In this document: positions 5,673-6,132 of the stretch, piece by piece
Layout: each line of letters opens with the position of its first letter
How positions within the stretch are numbered: the first letter of the stretch is position 1
Virus record (IMG/VR): IMGVR_UViG_2548876935_000015
Origin: a virus
Taxonomy: Duplodnaviria > Heunggongvirae > Uroviricota > Caudoviricetes
DNA length: 8,491 nucleotides
Strand: one strand, 5' to 3'
Position numbers and translations under genes: made by a program
Notes under the pieces: generated by a model
Database searches by the model: none
What the model was told of the DNA's origin: nothing
What the model saw: the letters and a program-made list of their open reading frames with translations, nothing else

Positions 5673-5820
5673 TAAGCAGACTCATTGTGTTTAGGGACAT
5701 TGTACTGGAAGAAAACATTTTAAACATCAGGCAAATAACCAAGTCACCAGCTAAATAATAAGTTAACAGACATGAGTCCCGGGATGAGATTCAACATTAC
5801 CATTGCCCCATTTAAAGCAC

Positions 5821-5844
5821 AAAACCCGCTCATCAGCGGGTTTT
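5821..5844. terminator. Bidirectional intrinsic terminator
   Basis: AAAACCCGCT-CATC-AGCGGGTTTT (10-bp stem). T-rich tails on both strands (plus: CUACUUUUUCUU; minus: GUGCUUUAAA after the U4 of the stem). Confidence 0.65.
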
Positions 5845-5889
5845 CTACTTTTTCTTAACCTCGGGTATACAAAGCCCATCGTTGAAAAA

Positions 5890-5918
5890 ATTTTATCCAT
5901 ATTTTTTGAAAAATGCAA
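5890..5918 (-). promoter_or_regulatory. Sigma70-like promoter on the minus strand, pointing into the 5821-5844 terminator
   Basis: Minus strand reads TTGCAT (-35, plus coordinates 5913-5918), 17-nt spacer, TAAAAT (-10, 5890-5895). The predicted start near 5882 would give a transcript of about 65 nt ending at the terminator. Confidence 0.35.
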
Positions 5919-6132
5919 GCATCACGTTACCATCTTCATTGAAAAACCTTTATCGTGTTACTTTTATCAATTGCACTTCAGTATAGAGTTATCCCAGACA
6001 GCACTTTAAAGACTTCTACATTACACACACCTTGTCTCCCCTTCTCGTCATATCTGCAAGACCGATATGCATGACGCAGTACATACGCTGAACTGCTTTA
6101 TCCATCTGCATATTCTAGTGCTAAAGCGACTT

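What the first reader, a model, noticed from the sequence alone, without database searches (positions are those of the whole stretch)
5810..5920. Late-promoter-like unit: strong minus-strand promoter firing directly into a terminator
TTGCAT, a 17-nt spacer and TAAAAT on the minus strand would start a transcript about 40 nt upstream of the 5821-5844 hairpin, giving a short RNA of about 65 nt. This promoter-then-early-terminator layout is that of lambdoid pR'/tR' (short constitutive RNA unless Q modifies RNA polymerase). It could be a pR' remnant stranded by loss of Q, or a small-RNA gene.
Basis: partly seen in the sequence, partly recalled or inferred. Interest (0 to 1): 0.45.

Follow-up and report, generated by a model that had tools for sequence, protein, structure and literature searches.

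The report
Orphaned lambda-type phage late promoter cassette
This is the late-gene switch of a decayed Qin-like prophage of E. coli (a promoter, a built-in polymerase pause site and an early terminator) that has lost the gene for its activator Q. On its own it can therefore probably make only a 67-nucleotide RNA; it is an ordinary, well-understood kind of element that genome records simply do not annotate.

Summary
On the minus strand, TTGCAT (5918-5913), a 17-nt spacer, TAAAAT (5895-5890) and a hairpin (5844-5821) sit as described.

The hexamers alone are not above chance: 56 equally good sites in the window against 46±9 expected. Homology makes the case:
- The stretch 5817-6007 is the Q-tail/pR'/pause-site/tR' block found directly after the 250-aa lambda-family Q gene (ydfT/quuQ) in K-12 Qin, SfV, 2H10, Ayreon, Stx2c phages and 80 IMG/VR contigs.
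- The initial transcribed sequence AACGATGGG (5883-5875) is identical to lambda pR' +1..+9, the sigma-dependent pause element, at the same 6-nt distance from the -10.
- One natural recombinant joins this promoter to lambda's 6S region at that 9-mer.
- Published Term-seq in K-12, whose cassette differs by 1 nt, maps an RNA 3' end equivalent to window 5817. That gives a 67-nt RNA if +1 is 5883.

The window holds only an 18-codon, stop-interrupted Q remnant. Relative to its closest complete genome, a 9.8-kb deletion has removed the intact Q.

It is a new member of a known kind, of modest interest. A trans-acting role like StxS for the short RNA is untested.

The parts
5953..6007 (-). Remnant of the 3' end of a lambda-family Q (ydfT/quuQ-type) antiterminator gene. 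It covers about 18 codons, with an in-frame stop at 5991-5989 and the original stop codon at 5952-5950.
   Evidence: tblastn with the 2H10 Q protein matches only residues 233-250 (61% identity, window 6006-5953). The translation reads ...*LYTEVQLIKVTR* against Q's ...EEAYAEVQLRKVTR*. Alignment A1. The remnant is 67% identical to K-12 at the nucleotide level, against 99% from the -35 onward.
5913..5918 (-). -35 element TTGCAT of the late promoter pR'
   Evidence: Sequence. The segment's mean major-allele frequency is 0.98 across 50 unique homologous sequences. Lambda has TTGACT at the same position.
5896..5912 (-). 17-nt spacer TTTTCAAAAAATATGGA, the expected place of the Q-binding element (QBE)
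   Evidence: The location is inferred from lambda, where the QBE is embedded in pR' (PMC9388147, PMC6266700). The spacer matches lambda's at 11 of 17 positions without gaps. Mean major-allele frequency is 0.94. Binding was not tested.
5890..5895 (-). -10 element TAAAAT
   Evidence: Sequence. Relatives carry TAAAAT, TAAGAT, TAGGAT or TAATAT. Lambda has TAAATT.
5875..5883 (-). Inferred transcription start (5883) and sigma70-dependent pause element AACGAT plus GGG
   Evidence: Identical 9-mer at identical spacing (6 nt after the -10) to lambda pR' +1..+9. The segment's mean major-allele frequency is 0.97. The natural hybrid L050 switches to lambda sequence at this 9-mer. Function of the lambda element: PMC9191641, PMC9388147.
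5821..5844 (.). tR' intrinsic terminator hairpin. The stem core is CCCGCT/AGCGGG with loop GATG, flanked by A4/T4, so it reads as a terminator on both strands.
   Evidence: A hairpin followed by a T run is kept at +36..+69 in 34 of 35 unique variants, including a different stem in the SKA5/sal3 type. The equivalent hairpin is annotated 'terminator' in the SfV and Ayreon records. K-12 Term-seq places a 3' end 4 nt after it.
5817..5883 (-). Predicted 67-nt terminated pR' transcript, the counterpart of lambda 6S RNA and of StxS
   Evidence: The 3' end is taken from K-12 MG1655 Term-seq: NC_000913.3 1642356(-), in LB at OD 0.4 and 2.0 (PMC7815308 supplementary file 1). It was mapped onto the window through the near-identical K-12 sequence. 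The 5' end is inferred from lambda. No TSS data were found.

Best explanation
The unit is the late-gene regulatory cassette (pR' promoter, Q-binding spacer, sigma70-dependent pause element, tR' terminator) of a Qin/SfV-type lambdoid prophage whose antiterminator Q belongs to the lambda Q family.

How it works:
1. Sigma70 RNA polymerase starts at about 5883 on the minus strand.
2. Sigma region 2 re-binds the -10-like AACGAT at +1..+6 and holds the polymerase in a promoter-proximal pause.
3. Without Q, the polymerase escapes and terminates at the hairpin 5844-5821, releasing a 67-nt RNA that ends at 5817.
4. With a cognate Q, the protein would bind the promoter spacer, load onto the paused polymerase and carry it through tR' into cspB and the lysis genes essQ-rrrQ-rzpQ.

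The window encodes no Q. Only an 18-codon remnant abuts the promoter, and a 9.8-kb deletion has removed the intact Q found in the closest genome. Here the cassette is therefore an orphan. It can only make the short RNA unless another prophage supplies the same Q type in trans.

Shown: the sequence elements, their homology and conservation, the family of Q, the absence of Q, and an RNA 3' end at the terminator in K-12.

Inferred: the start site, the pause, Q binding and Q-dependent read-through.
For: - **Elements present** at the stated coordinates.
- **Homologous block after Q.** It directly follows an intact 250-aa Q in K-12 Qin, SfV, 2H10, Tritos, Ayreon, 689R6, 720R4, SKA5, sal3, F1055 and Stx2c phages and in 80 IMG/VR loci.
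- **Q family.** This Q is lambda-family: 34% identity to lambda Q (E 2e-40), Pfam PF03589, best PDB hits the lambda Q structures 7UBM and 4MO1.
- **Match to lambda pR'.** AACGATGGG is identical to lambda pR' +1..+9 at the same spacing, and 32 of 44 positions from the -35 to +9 are identical without gaps.
- **Natural hybrid.** L050 joins this Q and promoter to lambda's 6S/tR' region at that 9-mer, with 9 mismatches over 631 nt downstream.
- **Unit boundaries.** Conservation is 0.91-0.98 from the Q tail to +9, apart from 0.81 in the 6-nt discriminator. It is 0.84 in the hairpin and drops to 0.52 right after it.
- **Terminator kept.** 34 of 35 unique variants retain it.
- **RNA 3' end.** K-12 Term-seq finds an 'orphan' 3' end at 1642356(-), equivalent to window 5817, in two conditions. 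The K-12 cassette differs by 1 of 102 nt.
- **No Q in the window**; deletion shown.
- **Late lysis genes** lie downstream on the same strand.
Against: - No transcription start site data were found for this promoter. The K-12 3' end could come partly from transcripts that start upstream, for example ydfT read-through.
- The -35 is a poor match to consensus (3/6), and hexamers of this quality occur at chance frequency.
- The U tract on the minus strand is short (UUUUGUGC). K-12 also shows a further 3' end 168 nt downstream at OD 2.0, so termination may be leaky.
- Hairpin covariation is weak: one pair with changes on both sides.
- Binding of this Q to this spacer has never been tested.
Confidence: 0.85

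Rival explanations
1. The 67-nt RNA is a functional trans-acting regulatory small RNA in the manner of StxS, kept for the host's benefit after Q was lost. The promoter-terminator unit should then be seen as an sRNA gene and not as a leftover. This adds to the cassette origin and does not exclude it.
For: - Precedent: the terminated pR' transcript of Stx phages is the Hfq-binding sRNA StxS. The same paper suggests that lambda 6S RNA and similar RNAs may act likewise (PMC7547250).
- K-12 shows a sizeable 3'-end peak at this terminator in two growth conditions.
- The unit is intact in 1,682 of 5,426 complete E. coli genomes. In the window it has outlived its Q gene and its endolysin.
- An A-rich AAGAAAAAGUAGAAAA tract precedes the hairpin.
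Against: - The RNA body (+10..+39) is the least conserved part of the unit (0.76-0.87) and exists in several unrelated versions. That fits a by-product better than a seed-bearing sRNA.
- The mapped 3' end is ...UUUUGUGC, not a terminal U run.
- There is no Rfam family here at E <= 1.
- No paper was found that names it.
- Flanking non-functional DNA is as conserved against K-12 as the unit itself (99%), so intactness is not evidence of selection.
Confidence: 0.1
2. The hairpin is simply the terminator of the convergent plus-strand genes cspF/ynfS, and the minus-strand hexamers are a chance match in A+T-rich DNA. On this reading there is no minus-strand unit.
For: - The scan tool scores the hairpin as a terminator on the + strand only (tail CTACTTTTTC).
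- cspF (5316-5528) and ynfS lie upstream of it on the + strand with no other + strand terminator between.
- Hexamers of this quality occur at chance frequency.
Against: - The promoter, pause element and hairpin travel together with Q in phages that have no cspF (SfV, Ayreon, Stx2c, sal3), and homology ends right after the hairpin.
- The K-12 Term-seq 3' end is on the minus strand, and no + strand 3' end is listed there.
- AACGATGGG is identical to lambda's pause element in register.
- A secondary role as a bidirectional terminator for cspF remains possible.
Confidence: 0.03
3. The region encodes a small protein. The HannyBb record annotates a 45-aa CDS equivalent to window 5900-5763, and the ORF list has a 51-aa frame at 5918-5763.
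For: An ORF exists and is annotated in one phage record.
Against: - Its start codon lies inside the promoter spacer, upstream of the inferred +1.
- The frame runs through the terminator into sequence that is not conserved among relatives.
- It has no family match.
- The HannyBb record calls a small CDS in nearly every gap.
Confidence: 0.02

Closest known systems
Bacteriophage lambda late regulatory cassette: Q, pR', qut (QBE plus sigma-dependent pause element), 6S RNA, tR'
   Same: - The Q protein family is the same (PF03589; 34% identity, E 2e-40).
- Both have a promoter with a 17-nt spacer.
- Both have the identical AACGATGGG at +1..+9, 6 nt after the -10.
- In both, Q's stop codon lies shortly upstream of the -35.
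- Both have an intrinsic terminator before the lysis genes.
- A natural hybrid recombines the two at the pause element.
   Different: - The Q is 250 aa with a 48-aa insertion that duplicates the zinc-finger region.
- The terminated RNA is 67 nt, against lambda's roughly 190-nt 6S RNA (lambda hairpin near L005 975).
- Beyond +9 the transcribed sequences are unrelated.
- The -35 is TTGCAT, not TTGACT.
- In the window the Q gene itself is missing.
The pR'-tR' unit downstream of ydfT/quuQ in the E. coli K-12 cryptic prophage Qin, and the annotated 'putative rho-independent terminator' after Q in Shigella phage SfV
   Same: - K-12: 101 of 102 nt identical from the -35 to the RNA 3' end.
- SfV: same elements, about 81% identity.
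- Same downstream cspF/cspB/essQ context as K-12.
   Different: - In K-12, SfV and 2H10 the intact Q gene abuts the unit. Here only an 18-codon, 67%-identical remnant does, with a sharp mosaic joint at the -35.
- Neither the K-12 RefSeq record nor any of the E. coli matches listed annotates the promoter or the RNA.
StxS, the Hfq-binding sRNA made by early termination of the pR' transcript of Shiga-toxin phages (PMC7547250)
   Same: It is the same kind of product: a constitutive short RNA from an antitermination-controlled late promoter of a (cryptic) lambdoid prophage.
   Different: - The blastn search of the phage collection with this unit returned only ydfT-type Q phages (35 records). No Stx2a/933W-type or lambda record was among them.
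- StxS is processed from a longer form to 74 nt.
- Hfq binding and targets are shown for StxS and unknown here.

Membership tests
Lambda-type (Q-lambda family) Q-dependent late regulatory cassette | A Q-lambda-family antiterminator gene immediately upstream of the promoter | tested here: not met
   The window has only residues 233-250 of Q (61% identity) with an internal stop. In all intact relatives the 250-aa PF03589 Q ends about 30 nt before the -35. The cassette is therefore a member by descent, but orphaned.
Lambda-type (Q-lambda family) Q-dependent late regulatory cassette | Sigma70 promoter (pR') with -35 and -10 hexamers | tested here: inconclusive
   TTGCAT-17-TAAAAT is present and conserved. 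The consensus match is only 8/12 and not above chance on its own. No TSS data were found.
Lambda-type (Q-lambda family) Q-dependent late regulatory cassette | Sigma-dependent pause element (-10-like sequence) in the initial transcribed region | tested here: met
   AACGATGGG at 5883-5875 is identical in sequence and spacing to lambda pR' +1..+9. It is near-invariant in homologs. Pausing itself was not measured.
Lambda-type (Q-lambda family) Q-dependent late regulatory cassette | Q-binding element embedded in the promoter | not testable with these tools
   The spacer is conserved (0.94) and matches lambda's at 11 of 17 positions. The exact lambda QBE bases were not retrievable, and no binding data exist for this Q.
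Lambda-type (Q-lambda family) Q-dependent late regulatory cassette | Intrinsic terminator shortly downstream of the pause site, upstream of the late genes | tested here: met
   The hairpin at 5844-5821 folds with z = -5.6 and is kept in 34 of 35 variants. A minus-strand RNA 3' end is mapped 4 nt after it in K-12. Lysis genes lie downstream on the same strand.
Lambda-type (Q-lambda family) Q-dependent late regulatory cassette | Q-dependent read-through of the terminator | not testable with these tools
   This needs a reporter or in vitro transcription assay with the ydfT-type Q.
   The Q adjacent to this unit in relatives hits only PF03589 (plus the DnaJ zinc-finger domain) in Pfam, and only lambda Q structures in the PDB. 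PMC9388147 assigns PF06530 to the Q21 family.
Hfq-dependent trans-acting sRNA (StxS-like) | Terminator hairpin ending in a terminal U run, conserved seed, chaperone binding | tested here: inconclusive
   The mapped 3' end is UUUUGUGC. The RNA body is the most variable part of the unit. There is no Rfam hit.

The most novel reading that the evidence does not exclude
The 67-nt terminated pR' transcript of Qin-type prophages is a functional regulatory RNA analogous to StxS or lambda 6S RNA. The cassette occurs in about a third of complete E. coli genomes, K-12 included, and K-12 Term-seq records the transcript's 3' end as an unnamed 'orphan'. On this reading its persistence after loss of Q and of the endolysin reflects domestication, not slow decay.
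Probability: 0.1. Interest if true: 0.55.

Novelty: new member of a known kind. Interest (0 to 1): 0.27.

Why it matters
Mostly it settles an annotation question. A stretch left blank in the E. coli genome records listed (the cassette occurs in 1,881 of 5,426 complete genomes) is the late-promoter/pause/terminator cassette of the Qin/SfV-type Q, a lambda-family system with a much shorter terminated RNA.

It has three practical uses:
1. It explains an 'orphan' Term-seq 3' end in K-12.
2. It marks where a Q supplied in trans by another prophage could switch on a cryptic lysis region.
3. It offers a compact natural variant with the same pause element, a different Q-binding spacer and a Q carrying a duplicated zinc finger, useful for comparative work on Q loading.

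If the short RNA proved to be regulatory, it would add a widespread prophage sRNA to K-12.

Tried and rejected
- **Rfam.** A scan of the whole window at E <= 1 found nothing at 5810-5920.
- **Consensus scan.** It does not list the promoter, and it lists the terminator only on the + strand. A count of equal-quality hexamer pairs showed the consensus match is at chance level, so the case rests on homology.
- **Transcription start data for K-12 near 1642422(-).** None turned up. The Cappable-seq, SMRT-Cappable-seq and Kim 2012 supplements had no match, and the Rend-seq, Conway 2014 and RIL-seq supplements are not held. Thomason 2015 and the SfV genome paper are not held.
- **Literature.** Full-text searches for ydfT/quuQ/ynfS and for the sequence itself found nothing that names the unit.
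- **Hairpin covariation.** It is too weak to serve as evidence: one compensatory pair.
- **Protein-coding readings.** The overlapping ORFs (5763-5918 minus strand, 5803-6009 plus strand) have no family match and a start upstream of the TSS, and were rejected.
- **Selection on the cassette.** I considered whether the intact cassette next to a decayed Q tail shows selection. I rejected this because the non-functional downstream flank is equally 99% identical to K-12. The sharp switch at the -35 is better read as a recombination joint.

Full report
**1. What is in the sequence**

On the minus strand the window reads gcTTGCAT-ttttcaaaaaatatgga-TAAAAT-tttttc-AACGATGGGctttgtatacccgaggttaagaaaaagtagAAAACCCGCTGATGAGCGGGTTTTgtgcttt. 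The coordinates are:
- -35 at 5918-5913;
- a 17-nt spacer;
- -10 at 5895-5890;
- hairpin at 5844-5821.

The hairpin begins 40 nt after the A at 5883. The RNA 5883-5813 folds at -28.8 kcal/mol, z = -5.6.

By consensus alone the promoter is unremarkable. The -35 matches 3 of 6 positions and the scan tool does not list the site. Hexamer pairs of the same quality occur 56 times in the window against 46±9 in simulations. The tool also scores the hairpin as a terminator only on the + strand.

**2. Context**

The window is the late region of a Qin-like lambdoid prophage of E. coli, with the late genes on the minus strand: cspB, essQ, a ydfR fragment, rrrQ, rzpQ and cspI. cspF and ynfS are on the plus strand.

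The window matches strain CFSAN004176 in two blocks. Window 1-6173 equals record positions 2087252-2093424, and window 6172-8491 equals 2103268-2105587. There are only four SNPs, and the junction shows a 2-nt microhomology. The missing 9,843 bp hold the intact Q gene (ydfT), the replication genes and the repressor.

The right part of the window (6174-8491) is the yfdP/yfdQ/yfdR early-left region. A tblastn search with Q finds only residues 233-250 (61% identity) at window 6006-5953. The reading frame carries an internal stop.

**3. Homology**

Window 5821-6007 matches, at 75-99% identity, the segment annotated 'antitermination protein Q | terminator' in many phages.

In SfV, 2H10, Tritos, Ayreon, 689R6, 720R4, SKA5, 118970_sal3, F1055 and K-12 Qin, a 753-bp Q gene ends about 30 nt upstream of the -35. 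The SfV and Ayreon records annotate the hairpin as a terminator.

An alignment of 14 such regions shows the -35, spacer, -10, AACGATGGGCTTTGTAT and a hairpin conserved. Homology ends right after the hairpin.

With 80 further IMG/VR loci (Q at least 96% identical) there are 50 unique sequences. Their mean major-allele frequency by segment is as follows:

| Segment | Mean major-allele frequency |
|---|---|
| Q tail to +9 | 0.91-0.98 (but 0.81 in the 6-nt discriminator) |
| +10..+39 | 0.76-0.87 |
| Hairpin | 0.84 |
| After the hairpin | 0.52 |

Thirty-four of 35 unique variants keep a hairpin plus T run at +36..+69. This includes a different stem in the SKA5/sal3 type. Formal covariation is weak, with one compensatory pair.

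**4. It is lambda-type**

The 250-aa Q is 34% identical to lambda Q (E 2e-40) and carries a 48-aa insertion that duplicates the zinc-finger region. It hits Pfam PF03589 and the lambda Q structures 7UBM and 4MO1. It does not hit the Q21 family, PF06530 (family assignment from PMC9388147).

Lambda pR' reads TTGACT-tattgaataaaattggg-TAAATT-tgactc-AACGATGGG. The 9-mer AACGATGGG is identical and lies at the same 6-nt distance from the -10. From the -35 to +9, 32 of 44 positions match without gaps. In lambda this -10-like element is the sigma-dependent pause element that holds RNA polymerase at +16/+17 for Q loading (PMC9191641, PMC9388147).

One IMG/VR contig (L050) is a natural hybrid. It has this Q and promoter up to AACGATGGG, followed by lambda's 6S/tR' region with 9 mismatches in 631 nt. 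The two cassettes are therefore positionally homologous at the pause element.

**5. Experimental support from K-12**

The K-12 MG1655 Qin cassette differs from the window at 1 of 102 positions between the -35 and the RNA 3' end.

Term-seq (Adams et al. 2021, PMC7815308, supplementary file 1) lists a dominant 'orphan' 3' end at 1642356(-). Its sequence is ...GAGCGGGTTTTGTGC, and it appears in LB at OD 0.4 and at OD 2.0. This corresponds to window 5817. With +1 at 5883, as in lambda, the RNA is 67 nt.

I found no accessible TSS table covering this site. The start is therefore inferred, and some of the 3' ends could derive from upstream transcripts.

A second minus-strand 3' end, equivalent to window 5649, appears at OD 2.0. 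It hints at some read-through of the short U tract.

**6. Mechanism**

*Shown:*
- the elements and their conservation;
- the Q family;
- the absence of Q from the window;
- a terminator-associated 3' end in K-12.

*Inferred from lambda:*
1. RNA polymerase starts at 5883.
2. It pauses through sigma binding to AACGAT.
3. Without Q it terminates at tR' and releases the 67-nt RNA.
4. With a cognate Q bound in the spacer it would read through into cspB and the lysis genes.

In the window the cassette is orphaned, and the downstream lysis module is also decaying. The ydfR gene is a fragment, and a SNP at 2547 turns rrrQ Cys136 into a stop.

**7. How it became stranded**

Against K-12, identity is 67-74% upstream of the -35 and 99% from the -35 onward, including the non-functional flank. 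This is a mosaic joint at the promoter edge, and it gives no evidence of selection.

The same arrangement occurs in 40 of 5,426 complete E. coli genomes and in the phages HannyBb and PhiR63_1. The 15 of those genomes that one search lists by name all also carry a diverged cassette right after their intact Q, about 1.5 kb upstream, and that diverged cassette is likewise found in exactly 40 genomes. It reads TTGTAT...AAAGAG...AATGATGAG, with a hairpin of only -7.3 kcal/mol.

In that lineage the 'stranded' consensus copy may well be the working late promoter, since Q acts through DNA binding and need not be adjacent. This is inference. The window's own loss of Q is the later 9.8-kb deletion.

**8. 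Rivals**

- **StxS-like trans-acting sRNA.** This role is possible but unsupported. The RNA body is the most variable part of the unit, the mapped 3' end is not a terminal U run, and there is no Rfam family or literature mention.
- **Hairpin is only the cspF terminator.** This is contradicted by its linkage to Q in phages without cspF and by the minus-strand 3' end. A secondary bidirectional role is plausible.
- **Small-protein reading.** This is rejected.

**9. Novelty and verdict**

The kind of element is textbook (PMC9388147). Short terminated pR' RNAs are known for lambda, 21, phi80, 82, P22 and Stx phages (PMC7547250).

This particular cassette occurs in 1,881 of 5,426 complete E. coli genomes. 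It is un-annotated in the genome records listed and unnamed in the literature I could search. It is a new member of a known kind.

Interest is modest.

Noticed in passing
window 6172-6173: The window equals E. coli CFSAN004176 with a clean 9,843-bp deletion (record 2093425-2103267) at a 2-nt AG microhomology. The deletion removes the intact Q (ydfT), DUF968, KilA-N, RusA, methyltransferase, replication and repressor genes. It joins the late region to the yfdP/yfdQ/yfdR early-left region. No complete genome in the collection has this junction.
   Followed up: partly
window 2547 (also 1214, 2320, 7288): Only four SNPs separate the window from CFSAN004176, and in all four the window base is T. 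The one at 2547 changes Cys136 of the endolysin RrrQ to a stop codon, so the lysis module downstream of the cassette is inactivated.
   Followed up: partly
L001 10880-11050 (CFSAN004176 2094730-2094900); L008 807-1000: Forty complete E. coli genomes and the phages HannyBb and PhiR63_1 have two late cassettes in tandem. The copy right after the intact Q has changes in every element (TTGTAT, AAAGAG in place of the -10, AATGATGAG, weak hairpin). The consensus copy, which is the one in the window, lies about 1.5 kb downstream behind a Q-tail remnant. Which copy is functional is unknown.
   Followed up: partly
window 5918/5919: Identity to K-12 Qin jumps from 67-74% (Q-tail remnant and gap) to 99% exactly at the -35 hexamer. 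This is a mosaic recombination joint at the promoter edge.
   Followed up: yes
L050 1399-2150 (IMGVR_UViG_2565956633_000004): A natural hybrid: the ydfT-type Q and its promoter are fused at AACGATGGG to the 6S RNA/tR' region of phage lambda (9 mismatches in 631 nt). The shared pause element seems to act as a recombination point between late-control modules.
   Followed up: partly
window ~5649-5676 (minus strand): K-12 Term-seq lists a second minus-strand 3' end (1642188, LB OD 2.0) equivalent to window 5649. It lies just after the inverted repeat TCTGCT...AGCAGA, antisense to ynfS. It could be read-through of tR' or a processed end.
   Followed up: no
window 4737-5176 (-) and 1305-1721 (-): Rfam cspA thermoregulator matches above the gathering score (159 and 110 bits). 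They cover the 5' UTR and coding region of the prophage cold-shock genes cspB and cspI.
   Followed up: no
window 6217-6439 (+) and 7819-7998 (+): There is a near-threshold Rfam match to the sRNA family STnc100 (46.5 bits against a gathering score of 47, E 9.5e-8) upstream of and overlapping the yfdP-like ORF. A weak second match (22 bits) lies between yfdQ and yfdR.
   Followed up: no
L008 (phage HannyBb) 840-3601: The HannyBb record annotates about 20 CDSs of 30-55 codons filling every gap between Q and the holin gene. One of them starts inside the pR' spacer. These look like over-calls, not genes.
   Followed up: no
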